In this document: piece by piece, positions 1 to 3,000 of the stretch
How positions within the stretch are numbered: position 1 is the stretch's first letter
Layout: every line of letters begins with the position of its first letter
NCBI RefSeq assembly: GCF_048403405.1
Contig: NZ_CP183129.1
Direction: 5' to 3' (one strand)
DNA length: 64,000 bases
DNA from: Escherichia coli
GTDB taxonomy: Bacteria > Pseudomonadota > Gammaproteobacteria > Enterobacterales > Enterobacteriaceae
Program-made: the position numbers

Positions 1-3000
1 TGCGGCCTGTTGTGGCGTCAGGACCCCTGCCTGATGCTCACCATAAAACGGCTGTTTCTCATTGCGTGCATCCGGTGAAAGCGTTCCCGGTGCACTTTGC
101 GTTTTTTGTGCATGAGCGACCGGACAACTTCCCGCCAGCGCCAGCGCACCAATCCCTTTCAGTAAACGTCGGCGTGACGGTTCATTCACGCCGTTTTCAT
201 CTTCATACTGCATAACACTTAATCCAGTCCCAGCACACCGCGAAGTTGCGCCAGATCTTCCGCCAGCGCAGTAATCGGCCCTTTCAGCGCGTTACGGTCG
301 GCATCGGTCAATTTGTCGTAGGTTTCAAAACCGTCTTTAGTACGGTATTTCGCCAGAATGGTATCGACCTTTTTGAAGTTGGCATCGACTTTTGCCAGCA
401 GTTCCGGGTTGGCTTTTTGTAGTTGTGGACGCAGCAGATCGACAATTTTCTGCGAGCCTTCAACGTTAGCCTGGAAATCCCACAGATCGGTGTGGCTGTA
501 GCGATCTTCTTCACCGCTGATTTTGCTGGCTGCCACTTCCTCAATCAGTCCGGCTGCACCGCCGACCACTTTTGAAGGTGGGAAAGCCAGTTCACTGATG
601 CGTTTTTGCAAATCGACCACATCGGTATAAAGCTGGTCAGCGTACTTATCCATCCCTTTAGTGGTGTTATCGCCAAACAATGCTTTTTCCAGACGGTGGA
701 AACCGGTGAATTTTGGATCGGCGGCTTTTTGCTCGTAATCATCTTCACGGGCGTCAATGCTACCATCCAGATCGGAGAACAGTTCAGCAATCGGTTCAAT
801 GCGCTCATAGTGCTGGCGCGTCGGCGCATACAGTGCTTTCGCTTTTTCGATATCGCCTGCTTTAATCGCGTCGGTAAAGGCTTTGGTGTCGGTCACCAGC
901 TGTGTGGTTTCCGCCATGACATACGCTTTATATGCAGTAATTGCACCACCAAGACTTAACAGCGCATCACTTTGCGCCGCATCCGCCGTTGCCTCACCTT
1001 TGACGATCAACTTCCCTTTCGGGTTAGTCAGCAGACCGCAGGTCATATCGTATTCGCCAGGCTGTAAATTCGCCGTCATTTTCTGGCTAAAACCAGGGGC
1101 GATATTTTCCCGCTCTTCCACCACCATCACGCCTTTGAGGATCTCCCACTCCAGCGCCTTCTGGCTGTGGTTCTGAATAATGAACTGTGTTTTCCCGGCG
1201 TTAACCGTAATGGTCATCGGTTCGCACTGTTTATCTGTCACAGTGACTTTGACCTGCGGAATATCAGCGGCGTTAGCCATAAAAGCAGAAGAGAACAGCG
1301 CAGCCACGCTAAACTGCAATGCGTTACGGCGGAAGTTAATGGTCATGACGAGACTATCCCTTTAAAGTATGTTGTAACTAAGCAAGAGTTTGCGTCGTAT
1401 TTGTTACGCGGAGCGAGACGCTGTCGCCCCTGCGCGTGGTGGCAGAGCAAATGCCACCAGCGCCGGGATGAGATAAATAAACCAGACGGCGACTTCGCTG
1501 ACACTTGGCGCTTCCTGATAGCCAAAAATCCCTTCCATCAGCGTGCCAAACAGCGAGTGAGTTGAGAGCACCGCACTCATATCGAAGGCGATTTCCTGAA
1601 AGTGGTTCCACAATCCGGCTTCATGAAATGCGCGAATGGCACCAGCCGCCAGCCCTGCGGCGACGAAGAGAATAAACAGGCTGGTCCATTTAAAAAATGC
1701 ACCAAGATTGAGGCGAATACCGCCCCAGTAGAGCAGGAAGCCGAGCACCACGGCTGTAGCAAGACCGAGCATTGCACCCAGCGGCGGCCAGATCCCGACA
1801 TCTTGTTGAAATGCCGCCAGCAGGAAAAAGACCGACTCCAGCCCTTCCCTTGCAACGGCAAAAAAGACCATCATCACCAGCGCCCAGCCATGATGATTTC
1901 CACGCTGCAATGCGCTATCGACTGCCTGCTCCAGTTGTACTTTGACGTTGCGCGACACTTTGCGCATCCAGAAAACCATCCAGGTAAGGATCACCACGGC
2001 GATCACCGCCACGATACCTTCAAACAGTTCCTGTTCTTTTTGCGGAAATTCGCCGGTGGTTTCGTTAATGAAGATACCCAAGCCCAGGCACAACGCAGCG
2101 GCAAGCAACACGCCAATCCACATCACACCAATCCATCGGCCTCGCTGGGTACGCTTAAGATAGCTGGCAATCAAACTGACAATCAGCGCGGCTTCAAGTC
2201 CTTCGCGCAACATAATGAGAAATGGAACAAACATGCCACCCACCCTTAAACGTTTTTCTGAGTCAATCTATGCAAAGAAAAGTAAATCGCAGTGATAGCG
2301 ATTATCATTACGGCAAAGAAAAATACAAGCGGAATGTTTATAAAATGATGTTGGAATGTAAACAAAGAGAGGTAATGCCAGGGGATATAAACAATTATTC
2401 CAGGTACAAAGATGGGATTGTTTACAACGAGCCATGTGTTCTTGCCAGATGCCGCGTAAACGCCTTATCCAGCCGACAAAACTGTCCAGACTCAATGCAT
2501 CAGAGCTTCCATGTAAAACTGATAAGCGGGTGTATCAAGCAATTTCGTCCATCCGCGATTATCAAATCTAACTTTTTGCCCGGAACATAATAACAGCTCG
2601 GGTGTTGGTGGCGTCAAAGTCGCTGAAGCGTTCCCCGAAGGCCGGGGCAGCCCACATGGATGTGGGCTGAGGGCGCGTCTTACAGGACATTACCTCGCGC
2701 CCGACCCGGTAGCCGAAGGGGATAAGCTGAAGGTACCGCGCAGCGGCGATTTTGTTCGCCAGAGCCCGGGGTGCAGGGGGTGGCGGCGATTGGCCGCCCC
2801 CTGCACCATTCAATTTATATGGCGAGGCACATTAAGGGAGCGCAACCCGCTGCTGAAGCCAAACAAAACCGCCGCAGGCTAAGTCCCTTAGCTTTCCTGC
2901 AACCGTGACGGCGGAGCCGAATGATAGTGCGCATCGGCCTCGGCAAAGCGTTTTTGCATCGCCGCTGACGGCGCTTTACCCAGCAAACTAAACACTACAA

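What the first reader, a model, noticed from the sequence alone, without database searches (positions are those of the whole stretch)
2590..2887. GC-rich structured element with two long perfect or near-perfect palindromes downstream of putP
The putP-efeU intergenic region switches from AT-rich (efeU promoter side) to a GC-rich block of roughly 300 bp. It contains a 9-bp-stem palindrome CAGCCCACA-TGGA-TGTGGGCTG (2648-2669) and a 14-15-bp-stem hairpin GGTGCAGGGGGTGGCGGC-GATTG-GCCGCCCCCTGCACC (2769-2807), plus a repeated CCGAAGG motif. Neither hairpin is followed by a clean U-run on the putP strand and neither matches the REP consensus seen elsewhere in the window. It could be a putP 3' UTR structure, a different class of intergenic repeat (RIP/BoxC-like), or a small structured RNA.
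Basis: seen in the sequence. Interest (0 to 1): 0.35.

Follow-up and report, generated by a model that had tools for sequence, protein, structure and literature searches.

The report
TRIP1 repeat copy downstream of putP
The GC-rich block after putP is a full-length copy of TRIP1, a known multi-copy E. coli intergenic repeat; its core turns out to be a relative of the little-studied TwoAYGGAY RNA motif, and its function is still untested.

Summary
Window 2586-2870 is one ~285-nt GC-rich unit containing both palindromes.

It is not unique to putP. It is the TRIP1 repeat (Rudd 1999; Li et al. 2024) at the TRIP1b site. In K-12 this copy has lost its central ~125 bp. Here, as in about 945 of 5,426 complete E. 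coli genomes, it is undeleted.

TRIP1 relatives occur in several copies per genome across Enterobacterales. Examples are Klebsiella, Citrobacter, Enterobacter, Pantoea, Pectobacterium and Serratia.

A nested nine-helix structure is kept by compensatory changes: 41 of 53 pairs change on both sides, and 88.6% of cells pair against 71% when shuffled.

The core holds two hairpins with GGA loops. It matches Rfam TwoAYGGAY (RF01731, the same clan as CsrB): above threshold in a Pantoea relative, and as the best sub-threshold hit for E. coli TRIP1a, d and e. The window copy itself gets no hit. It looks decayed, with an 11-nt deletion that removes one helix strand and a damaged second loop.

The sense strand is the window + strand, antisense to putP.

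Function is unproven. A CsrA-binding RNA has been proposed in the literature, but published CLIP data give no support. The finding is a known element, with a new link between two orphan families.

The parts
2586..2870 (+). Whole TRIP1 element, the undeleted form at the TRIP1b site. The sense strand is the window + strand, antisense to putP.
   Evidence: Covariance model R1 matches it at 222.8 bits, E = 5.6e-77, and it is the only hit in the 64-kb window. It is 95-97% identical to the aqpZ-lysO and yohP-dusC copies.
2615..2622 (+). 5' strand of the long-range helix P1 (CAAAGUCG). It pairs with 2747-2754 and encloses the TwoAYGGAY-like core.
   Evidence: Helix 1: 7 of 8 pairs change on both sides and 96% of cells pair. 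The window-specific G2619 forms a G-U wobble with T2750 only on the + strand.
2747..2754 (+). 3' strand of helix P1 (CGAUUUUG).
2648..2669 (+). Hairpin 1: a 9-bp stem with A-UGGA-U at the tip (AUGGAU = AYGGAY, 2656-2661).
   Evidence: I3. The stem covaries: CAGCCCACA in E. coli, CAGCCCGCA in Klebsiella, GAGCCAGCA in Citrobacter (helix 5 pairs in 99.5% of cells). GGA is present in 77 of 78 sequences. Most of those sequences were found with a pattern that required CATGGATG.
2671..2702 (+). Helix GGGCGCG/CGCGCCC (2671-2677 with 2696-2702) carrying hairpin 2, with GGA at 2685-2687. It is flanked by a possible tandem G-A (2669-2670 with 2703-2704). The loop here is CAGGAC, one base shorter than in other TRIP1 copies.
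   Evidence: Helix 6 (4 of 4 pairs covary, 96.7% paired). The hairpin-2 region has GGA in 75 of 78 sequences. The 1-nt deletion is visible.
2736..2746 (+). Mini-hairpin CCGC-GCA-GCGG, with a G-N-A triloop.
   Evidence: Helix 7: 100% of cells pair and 3 of 4 pairs covary. Loop positions 1 and 3 are fixed and the middle base varies. This segment was part of the search pattern.
2770..2807 (+). In this allele an 11-nt deletion lengthens it to 15 bp. T2781 pairs with G2796 as a wobble on the + strand.
   Evidence: I1. TRIP1c carries two double compensatory changes (GCAGGGGGAGGA/TCCTCCCCCTGC). Helix 8: 9 of 12 pairs covary, but only 71.6% of cells pair because the alignment register is poor there.
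2837..2843 (+). GGAGCGC, the orphan 3' strand of a conserved helix. Its partner GCGCUCC lies in the 11 nt (CCCTGCGCGCT) that are deleted in this allele.
   Evidence: The deletion is seen against L005 and the other copies. The helix covaries as GCGCUCC/GGAGCGC, CGUUCAC/GUGAACG and GGUCGCC/GGCGAAC (helix 9).

Best explanation
**Identity (shown).** The block is a copy of TRIP1, a dispersed intergenic repeat of about 270-300 nt. It sits at the putP-efeU site called TRIP1b. Here it is in its undeleted form.

**Family (shown).** TRIP1 is the E. coli branch of a multi-copy family found across Enterobacterales. A nested single-strand structure in this family is maintained by selection. A long-range helix closes a core holding two GGA-loop hairpins. 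A 3' domain follows, made of a long GC hairpin and one more helix. The core is related to the Rfam TwoAYGGAY motif.

**Strand (inferred).** The structure acts in RNA read from the window + strand. Transcription would come mostly from read-through of neighbouring genes, because the element carries no conserved promoter or terminator of its own.

**Function (speculative, about 0.2-0.25).** The two GGA hairpins, about 27 nt apart, would bind a dimeric GGA-loop protein such as CsrA.

**This copy (inferred).**
- It is antisense to putP.
- It has lost one helix strand and has a damaged second loop, so it is probably a decaying, inactive copy.
- Its likely present effects are a very stable structure in the putP 3' region and a target for recombination with other TRIP1 copies, as Li et al. 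reported.
For: **Identity**
- Megablast finds the element in 5,425 of 5,426 complete E. coli genomes, at a median of 3 places per genome.
- Other copies lie between aqpZ and lysO and between yohP and dusC.
- K-12 has the same putP-efeU copy with a ~125-bp internal deletion.
- These are the loci and features published for TRIP1a, b and c (PMC10888264).
- About 945 genomes carry the undeleted form at putP.

**Family breadth**
- BLAST finds copies in Klebsiella, Citrobacter and Pantoea.
- A pattern scan returned 65 loci in 12 or more genera.

**Structure**
- RNAalifold predicts 34 pairs, 28 of them with compensatory changes.
- On 78 sequences and 53 pairs, 88.6% of cells pair. The figure is 71.2% when shuffled and 35-46% when partners are slid.
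- 41 pairs change on both sides. The covariation score is 0.418 against 0.138, reached by 0 of 500 shuffles.

**Constraint**
- The TRIP1c core is 92.6% and 98.7% identical between E. coli and two other Escherichia species.
- Four-fold degenerate sites in the flanking genes are only 56-74% identical.

**Link to TwoAYGGAY**
- RF01731 scores 46.4 bits on L054, above its gathering score of 43.
- It scores 37-38 bits on Serratia and Pantoea copies.
- It is the best hit, at 30.6-33.1 bits, on E. coli TRIP1a, d and e. All these hits are on the model's sense strand.
- CsrB is in the same clan, CL00106.

**Strand**
- In the 5' domain there are 75 G-U pairs against 28 A-C pairs.
- The alignment folds at -38.6 kcal/mol on the + strand and -31.6 on the minus strand.
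- Window-specific substitutions form G-U wobbles only on the + strand.

**Decay of this copy**
- An 11-nt deletion removes GCGCUCC, and hairpin 2 has lost one base.
- The model score is lower than for the undeleted putP-locus copy in L005, 222.8 against 256.4 bits.
- This copy gets no RF01731 hit at E <= 10.
Against: **Expression and binding**
- No expression data were available here.
- No conserved sigma-70 promoter or intrinsic terminator lies at the element ends.
- Orientation shows no bias relative to co-directional neighbours: 10 (+,+) against 10 (-,-). A cis-acting RNA would be expected to show one.
- The CsrA CLIP-seq supplement lists dusC and ybjE as not bound, and has no entry for aqpZ, putP or yohP.
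- Only two GGA loops are conserved, against about 20 in CsrB (from memory).

**Weaknesses in the structural evidence**
- Most sequences were collected with a pattern that fixed CATGGATG and the GGTA...CG.AG segment. The invariance of those parts is therefore partly an artefact of how the sequences were found.
- The alignment behind one search was fitted to the model for helices 1-7.
- The G-U versus A-C test depends on which strand the structure was derived from.
- Watson-Crick covariation alone cannot tell RNA from single-stranded DNA.
Confidence: 0.7

Rival explanations
1. TRIP1 is a selfish, non-autonomous mobile DNA element, in the manner of a MITE, REPIN or PATE. On this reading its folded structure is needed in single-stranded DNA, for a transposase supplied from elsewhere. 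It would have no RNA function.
For: - Copy number varies between genomes: 1-8 places in E. coli, 13 in one K. pneumoniae chromosome, 8 or more in Pantoea sp. SOD02.
- Loci differ between genera.
- Copies lie next to gene 3' ends in either orientation, mostly between convergent genes.
- Citrobacter and Leclercia carry inverted head-to-head pairs reminiscent of REPINs.
- In Pantoea and Klebsiella the copies are bracketed by REP sequences.
- The CCGC-GNA-GCGG mini-hairpin resembles the very stable d(GCGNAGC) DNA hairpins (from memory).
Against: - No terminal inverted repeats were found.
- No target-site duplication or clean filled-versus-empty site was found. The TRIP1d and TRIP1e alleles replace a segment rather than insert.
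- No transposase or other protein recurs next to the copies.
- There is no match in the phage collection and only one in the viral contigs.
- The a, b and c loci are fixed across E. coli and sister species, and the core is much more conserved than neutral sites.
- The two copies of a Citrobacter pair are diverged subtypes, not near-identical arms.
Confidence: 0.15
2. The element works only at the DNA level or as a generic RNA structure. It would be a GC-rich cruciform or stable 3'-end structure that protects or ends neighbouring mRNAs in either orientation, and a substrate for homologous recombination. The GGA loops would have no specific role.
For: - Both strands fold far better than shuffled sequence, z = -4.67 and -3.67.
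- Copies lie 20-120 nt past stop codons.
- Alleles without TRIP1 carry an ordinary terminator hairpin in the same place: 7CC at copA and K-12 at alx.
- Recombination between TRIP1 copies causes inversions of up to 1.3 Mb (PMC10888264).
Against: - A generic stabiliser does not need nine nested helices with conserved loops and junctions. REP elements do the same job with a single palindrome.
- Loop sequences (GGA, GNA, the GGUA junction) are conserved, including in copies not found by the pattern, which carry CAGGGAUG.
- G-U wobbles favour one strand.
- The core matches an Rfam RNA motif in a strand-consistent way.
Confidence: 0.1
3. The block is a putP-specific 3' UTR element or the putP transcription terminator.
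For: It begins 17 nt after the putP stop codon (2888). No other terminator-like hairpin lies between putP and efeU on the minus strand.
Against: - The same element occurs at aqpZ-lysO, yohP-dusC, alx-sstT and copA-ybaP, in both orientations.
- K-12 putP has lost the central 125 bp.
- No U-run follows either hairpin on the minus strand.
- The sense strand is antisense to putP.
Confidence: 0.03

Closest known systems
TRIP1 repeats of E. coli (TRIP1a-e; Rudd 1999, Res Microbiol 150:653; Li et al. 2024, PMC10888264)
   Same: - The sequence is 95-97% identical to TRIP1a and TRIP1c.
- The locus is the TRIP1b site: GCGCAAC ends 42 nt from the putP stop, and the paper gives 41 bp.
- GC content is similar (about 61%).
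- The predicted fold is similarly very stable.
   Different: - Published TRIP1b is defined as a 146-bp form with a 125-bp internal deletion. This copy is undeleted, as are about 945 of 5,426 complete genomes at this locus.
- It also carries its own 11-nt deletion.
- The paper treats TRIP1 as E. coli-only, with no homologues and no tested structure. Here it extends across Enterobacterales, with covariation.
TwoAYGGAY RNA motif (Rfam RF01731, clan CL00106; Weinberg et al. 2010, PMC2864571)
   Same: - Two adjacent hairpins with A-N/Y-GGA-Y loops are enclosed by a closing stem.
- It is multi-copy in gamma-proteobacterial genomes (Psychromonas in the original alignment).
- It shows no consistent gene association.
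- RF01731 is the best Rfam hit on TRIP1a, d and e and passes threshold on a Pantoea relative, on the same strand.
   Different: - The window copy does not score at all, and E. coli copies are sub-threshold (30.6-33.1 bits against 43).
- In E. coli the second loop is ARGGAY (AAGGAC or AGGGAU) rather than AYGGAY.
- TRIP1 has extra conserved parts outside the Rfam model: long-range helix P1, the GNA mini-hairpin and a roughly 110-nt 3' domain.
CsrB/CsrC/RsmB-type CsrA-sequestering sRNAs (RF00018 and related families, clan CL00106)
   Same: - GGA sits in hairpin loops with ACA-N-GGAUGU context, close to the CsrA SELEX consensus RUACARGGAUGU (from memory).
- The two sites are about 27 nt apart, within the range a CsrA dimer can bridge (from memory).
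- Gardner and Eldai 2015 (PMC4333381) predicted that TwoAYGGAY binds CsrA.
   Different: - Only two conserved GGA loops, against about 20 in CsrB.
- No promoter or terminator of its own.
- A rigid multi-helix scaffold.
- No CLIP-seq signal reported for the neighbouring genes.
- CsrA binding has never been tested.
REP/BIME elements and REPINs
   Same: - GC-rich, multi-copy intergenic palindromic elements next to gene 3' ends.
- Sometimes found in inverted pairs.
- In Pantoea and Klebsiella, TRIP1-like copies are bracketed by the species' own REPs.
   Different: - REP is a single palindrome of about 35 nt with a different consensus. Here it occurs only at 2438-2474.
- TRIP1 is about 285 nt, with nested long-range helices and conserved loops.
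- No RAYT transposase link was seen.

Membership tests
TRIP1 repeat (E. coli) | High nucleotide identity to TRIP1a and TRIP1c (published 84-94% between types) | tested here: met
   95-97% identity over query 33-245 to the aqpZ-lysO and yohP-dusC copies. Alignments.
TRIP1 repeat (E. coli) | Lies at one of the fixed loci. For TRIP1b this is about 41 bp after the putP stop and upstream of efeU (ycdN). | tested here: met
   putP is 2888..4396 (-) and efeU is 1404..2243 (-). The same locus is seen in K-12 and other strains. Published description.
TRIP1 repeat (E. coli) | The TRIP1b type is the 146-bp form with a 125-bp internal deletion | tested here: not met
   The window has the undeleted sequence, while K-12 lacks the central block. 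It is therefore TRIP1 at the b site, but not the published b form.
TwoAYGGAY RNA (RF01731) | Score at or above Rfam's gathering threshold (43 bits) | tested here: not met
   The window has no hit at E <= 10. E. coli TRIP1a, d and e score 30.6-33.1 bits. Relative L054 scores 46.4 bits, which passes.
TwoAYGGAY RNA (RF01731) | First terminal loop contains AYGGAY | tested here: met
   AUGGAU at 2656-2661, at the tip of hairpin 2648-2669.
TwoAYGGAY RNA (RF01731) | Second terminal loop contains AYGGAY | tested here: not met
   The window has CAGGAC (2683-2688). Other TRIP1 copies have AAGGAC, AGGGAU or AUGGAU. GGA is kept in 75 of 78 sequences, but Y at position 2 is not.
TwoAYGGAY RNA (RF01731) | A closing stem encloses both hairpins | tested here: met
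   Helices 3-4 (CCGGGG with CCCGG) and long-range helix 1 enclose both hairpins and covary.
TwoAYGGAY RNA (RF01731) | Transcribed as RNA | not testable with these tools
   No expression data were available. Weinberg 2010 rates the motif only as 'probably RNA'.
Csr/Rsm CsrA-sponge sRNAs | Many (about 9-22) GGA motifs, mostly in hairpin loops | tested here: not met
   Only two loop GGAs are conserved.
Csr/Rsm CsrA-sponge sRNAs | Independent gene with its own promoter and intrinsic terminator | tested here: not met
   No promoter-like site, and no conserved terminator at the element ends.
Csr/Rsm CsrA-sponge sRNAs | Binds CsrA | not testable with these tools
   The published CLIP-seq supplement lists dusC and ybjE as not bound and has no entry for aqpZ, putP or yohP. 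No direct test exists.
REP/BIME | Imperfect palindrome of about 35 nt with the REP consensus | tested here: not met
   The only REP-type match (naRNA4 model, partial) is at 2438-2474, outside the block.
MITE / REPIN-type mobile element | Terminal inverted repeats and target-site duplication, or precise filled versus empty sites | tested here: not met
   No inverted repeats at the element's ends. At alx-sstT and copA-ybaP the TRIP1 alleles replace non-homologous segments, with no duplication.
Intrinsic terminator of putP | GC hairpin followed by a U-run on the putP (minus) strand | tested here: not met
   No minus-strand terminator-like site in 2590-2887.

The most novel reading that the evidence does not exclude
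TRIP1 would not be inert repeat DNA. It would be the Enterobacterales branch of the TwoAYGGAY RNA family: dispersed modules of about 285 nt whose sense RNA presents two GGA-loop hairpins on a conserved scaffold. That RNA would bind CsrA, or another protein that recognises GGA loops. Copies placed beside gene 3' ends would then titrate or locally recruit a global post-transcriptional regulator. This would give a function to two orphan elements at once, a 25-year-old E. coli repeat and a 15-year-old Rfam motif.
Probability: 0.2. Interest if true: 0.6.

Novelty: already known. Interest (0 to 1): 0.3.

Why it matters
For this window the result is mostly housekeeping. The block should be labelled as TRIP1 at the TRIP1b site, in undeleted form. 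It should not be reported as a putP-specific structure or a new RNA.

Three by-products may be useful.
- TRIP1 is not confined to E. coli. It is a multi-copy family across Enterobacterales, with a structure supported by covariation and a core under strong constraint.
- TRIP1 links to Rfam TwoAYGGAY. That supplies a concrete, cheap experiment: CsrA binding to the + strand RNA, in K-12, where only three copies need deleting.
- The putP copy appears to be decaying in most strains, through repeated internal deletions that remove the GGA hairpins. That makes it a natural loss-of-function series.

TRIP1 copies also drive large chromosomal inversions (Li et al. 2024), so knowing which strains carry a full-length third copy matters for genome-structure work.

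Tried and rejected
- **Rfam on the window.** Nothing significant in the block. The link appeared only when relatives were scanned.
- **Phage or viral origin.** No match in the phage collection and one stray viral contig. Rejected.
- **Plasmid-borne element.** All 36 plasmid-collection hits are non-mobilizable records. Those I checked by length or annotation are whole chromosomes or chromosome-like stretches. Rejected.
- **Linked protein gene or autonomous parent.** Clustering ORFs within 2.5 kb of about 70 copies gave only spurious ORFs lying on the element, syntenic neighbours within a genus, and two clusters of ordinary flanking ORFs that I did not annotate. No cluster of element-linked ORFs at a consistent position emerged.
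- **Protein coding.**
  - The only ORFs on the block are short: 81 aa on the minus strand and 45 aa on the + strand.
  - Copies differ by 1-nt and 11-nt indels and by paired compensatory changes.
  - Rejected.
- **Own promoter.** No sigma-70 site at the tool's threshold. My looser scan found weak, lineage-specific sites only, in Citrobacter and Silvania. Inconclusive.
- **Clean insertion sites.** The alx-sstT (TRIP1d) and copA-ybaP (TRIP1e) filled and empty alleles differ by segment replacement, not insertion.
- **Vertical conservation of loci between genera.** Mostly absent.
- **CsrA CLIP-seq support.** None found.
- **Strand from G-U versus A-C counts.** It favours + in the well-aligned 5' domain (75 to 28), but it depends on the strand used to derive the structure.
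- **IS200/IS605-type, retron, group II intron, riboswitch and tRNA-like ideas.** I considered these from memory and dropped them. There is no Rfam match, no partner gene, and no consistent position relative to genes.
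Full report
**1. What is in the sequence**

putP is the 502-aa ORF at 2888..4396 on the minus strand. efeU is at 1404..2243, also on the minus strand. Between them GC content rises from 0.31-0.49 to 0.53-0.70 over about 2550-2850.

One has arms 2648-2657 and 2660-2669, perfectly complementary. The other has arms 2770-2784 and 2793-2807, 15 nt with one G-T. CCGAAGG occurs twice in the block, but its count over the whole window is at chance level.

On the putP strand no terminator-like site lies in the block. 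The + strand folds at -143.3 kcal/mol (z = -4.67) and the minus strand at -132.5 kcal/mol (z = -3.67).

**2. It is a known repeat**

Megablast of 2560-2900 against 5,426 complete E. coli genomes hits 5,425 of them, at a median of 3 places per genome.

The other places are the aqpZ-lysO and yohP-dusC intergenic regions, at 95-97% identity. K-12 has the same putP-efeU element but lacks about 125 central bases.

These are the loci and properties of TRIP1a, TRIP1b and TRIP1c. Rudd discovered them in 1999, and Li et al. surveyed them in 6,725 genomes in 2024 (PMC10888264). That paper defines TRIP1b as the 146-bp deleted form.

In this window, and in about 945 genomes whose match covers at least 80% of the query including the putP flank, the copy is undeleted. 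About 350 records are at least 99% identical to this allele.

**3. The family is much wider than E. coli**

- BLAST against the plasmid collection, which contains mislabelled chromosomes, finds copies at 74-87% identity in Klebsiella, Citrobacter and Pantoea. One K. pneumoniae chromosome has 13 places.
- A degenerate pattern taken from the conserved parts returned 65 loci. The genera are Citrobacter, Enterobacter, Klebsiella, Leclercia, Silvania, Atlantibacter, Escherichia, Pantoea, Erwinia, Pectobacterium, Symbiopectobacterium and Serratia.
- The model also uncovers copies that the pattern missed.
  - Citrobacter and Leclercia have head-to-head pairs of two diverged subtypes about 50 nt apart.
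  - K. pneumoniae has tandem copies.
- Within a genome, copies share lineage-specific flanks and are often bracketed by that species' own REP sequences.

**4. The structure is conserved by compensatory change**

RNAalifold on 43 sequences predicts 34 pairs, 28 of them with double changes. I added the terminal hairpin and a 3' helix by hand and counted 53 pairs on 78 distinct sequences.

| Measure | Observed | Shuffled control | Slid control |
|---|---|---|---|
| Cells forming a standard pair | 88.6% | 71.2% | 35-46% |
| Pairs with a change on both sides | 41 | 32.7 | 20-24 |
| Covariation score | 0.418 | 0.138 (0 of 500 reach it) | 0.064-0.129 |

The architecture has five parts.
- A long-range helix (2615-2622 with 2747-2754) closes a multi-branch core.
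- The core holds hairpin 1 (2648-2669) and a second helix-hairpin (2671-2702).
- A mini-hairpin with a G-N-A loop follows (2736-2746).
- Then comes the long GC hairpin (2770-2807).
- Last is a helix GCGCUCC/GGAGCGC, which covaries with CGUUCAC/GUGAACG and similar pairs.

Three caveats apply. Most sequences were collected with a pattern that fixed CATGGATG and the GGTA...CG.AG segment. The alignment was fitted to the model for helices 1-7. The sequences are related to one another.

**5. The core is under constraint**

At the orthologous yohP-dusC locus, the TRIP1c core is 92.6% and 98.7% identical between E. coli and two other Escherichia species. Four-fold degenerate sites are 73-74% identical in dusC and 56-57% in mdtQ.

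**6. Link to a known RNA motif**

Both core hairpins carry GGA in their loops.
- Hairpin 1 has GGA in 77 of 78 sequences. This includes CAGGGAUG in copies the pattern did not find.
- The hairpin-2 region has GGA in 75 of 78 sequences.

Scanning relatives against Rfam gave TwoAYGGAY (RF01731) each time.

| Copy | Score (bits) |
|---|---|
| Pantoea rwandensis (L054) | 46.4 (gathering score 43) |
| Serratia and Pantoea copies | 37-38 |
| E. coli TRIP1a, d and e (best hit for each) | 30.6-33.1 |
| Window copy | no hit at E <= 10 |

All these hits are on the strand I had called sense.

TwoAYGGAY was found by Weinberg et al. in 2010. They rated it 'probably RNA', not cis-regulatory. It is multi-copy in Psychromonas in their alignment. 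Rfam places it in clan CL00106, and I confirmed that CsrB is in the same clan.

Gardner and Eldai (2015) predicted that the motif binds CsrA. A 2025 preprint still calls it an RNA of unknown function. Neither TRIP1 paper nor the motif papers I could read connect the two.

**7. Which strand, and what this copy looks like**

The sense strand is the window + strand, antisense to putP and efeU. Four lines of evidence point that way.
- The orientation of the Rfam hits.
- G-U against A-C counts in the 5' domain, 75 to 28.
- Alifold energies of -38.6 on the + strand against -31.6 on the minus strand.
- Window-specific wobbles (G2619-T2750 and T2781-G2796).

The G-U test is only moderate evidence, because it depends on the strand used to derive the structure.

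This copy looks degraded.
- An 11-nt deletion (CCCTGCGCGCT) removes the 5' strand of the last helix.
- Hairpin 2 has lost a base, giving CAGGAC.
- The model score is lower than for the other full-length putP-locus copy, 222.8 against 256.4 bits.
- Internal deletions that remove both GGA hairpins recur at this locus and at aqpZ-lysO.

**8. How it spreads and what it does remain open**

- Copies sit 20-120 nt beyond stop codons, mostly between convergent genes. The neighbour combinations are (+,-) 23, (+,+) 10, (-,-) 10 and (-,+) 3, so there is no orientation bias.
- Loci differ between genera.
- TRIP1a and TRIP1c occur in both orientations in the same intergenic region in different strains, with non-homologous flanks.
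- At alx-sstT and copA-ybaP the TRIP1 alleles replace a terminator-containing segment rather than insert cleanly. No target duplication or terminal inverted repeat is seen.
- No protein gene travels with the element.
- No conserved promoter or terminator is present.
- The E. coli CsrA CLIP-seq supplement lists dusC and ybjE as unbound.

**9. Verdict**

The block is a known element, TRIP1 at the TRIP1b site, in an undeleted but partly decayed allele. It is not a putP-specific structure.

The best-supported mechanism is a dispersed structured-RNA module of the TwoAYGGAY kind, read from the + strand. CsrA binding is a reasonable but untested idea, at about 0.2.

The rivals are a selfish mobile DNA element whose structure acts in single-stranded DNA, and a generic 3'-end structure. 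Neither is excluded.

Interest for this window is low to moderate. The cross-family link is the part worth following up.

Noticed in passing
window 2438-2474 (-): A REP-type palindrome (GGCTGGATAAGGCGTTTACGCGGCATCTGGCAA) lies about 110 nt to the left of the TRIP1 element. It gives a partial match to the naRNA4 model (27 bits, below threshold).
   Followed up: partly
window 1404-2243 (-): efeU is an intact 279-aa ORF in this strain. The K-12 copy is annotated as frameshifted.
   Followed up: partly
L002 and L078 (aqpZ-lysO); L006 and L007 (yohP-dusC): TRIP1a and TRIP1c occur in opposite orientations in the same intergenic region in different E. coli strains. At aqpZ-lysO, where the two alleles were compared, they have non-homologous flanking sequence, and K-12 keeps an aqpZ terminator hairpin that EDL933 lacks. 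This is not a simple in-place inversion.
   Followed up: partly
L001 1527-1699; L079 539-697; L080 539-757: Internal deletions that remove the two GGA hairpins recur at two loci (putP-efeU in K-12, aqpZ-lysO in two other strains). Their junctions lie in short GC-rich direct repeats such as CCGGGG or GCAG.
   Followed up: partly
L011 1623-1919 (-) and 1971-2267 (+); also L014, L015, L022, L025, L053, L057, L061, L063, L064, L065: In Citrobacter and Leclercia the elements come as head-to-head pairs of two diverged subtypes, separated by an AT-rich spacer of about 50 nt. The partner subtype has CAGGGAUG loops. The pair is the repeated unit there (500-720 bp).
   Followed up: partly
L009 1981-2276 and 2418-2713; L070-L077: K. 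pneumoniae has tandem direct copies bracketed by Klebsiella REP sequences. Pantoea sp. SOD02 has 8 or more copies, nearly all bracketed on both sides by a REP-like palindrome (GGTCGCCATGAATGGCGACC); one copy lacks the downstream one.
   Followed up: partly
L048, L049, L050, L054, L067: A Pantoea rodasii / P. rwandensis / Erwinia subtype keeps only the 5' (TwoAYGGAY-like) domain, joined to an unrelated 3' part. The core therefore behaves as a separable module. This subtype is the one that passes Rfam's threshold.
   Followed up: partly
L084 384-686 (+): The RefSeq annotation of strain GB089 has a 100-aa 'hypothetical protein' (WP_001441093.1) lying on TRIP1d. Given the indels and paired substitutions across copies, it is probably a spurious gene call.
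   Followed up: no
window 2862-2875 versus 2743-2756: The 3' tail of this copy (AACAAAACCGCCGC) is 93% complementary to the 3' strand region of the long-range helix. GCTGAAGC is also repeated at 2622-2629 and 2852-2859. This may be an alternative pairing or a partial duplication of the left end. It is unexplained.
   Followed up: no
L081 8975-9372 (K-12 alx-sstT); L037-L041 3' flanks: BoxC-like CCCTCTCCC...GGGAGAGGG repeats occupy the alx-sstT spacer in K-12, where other strains have TRIP1d. Similar repeats directly follow the TRIP1-like element in Enterobacter and Silvania.
   Followed up: no
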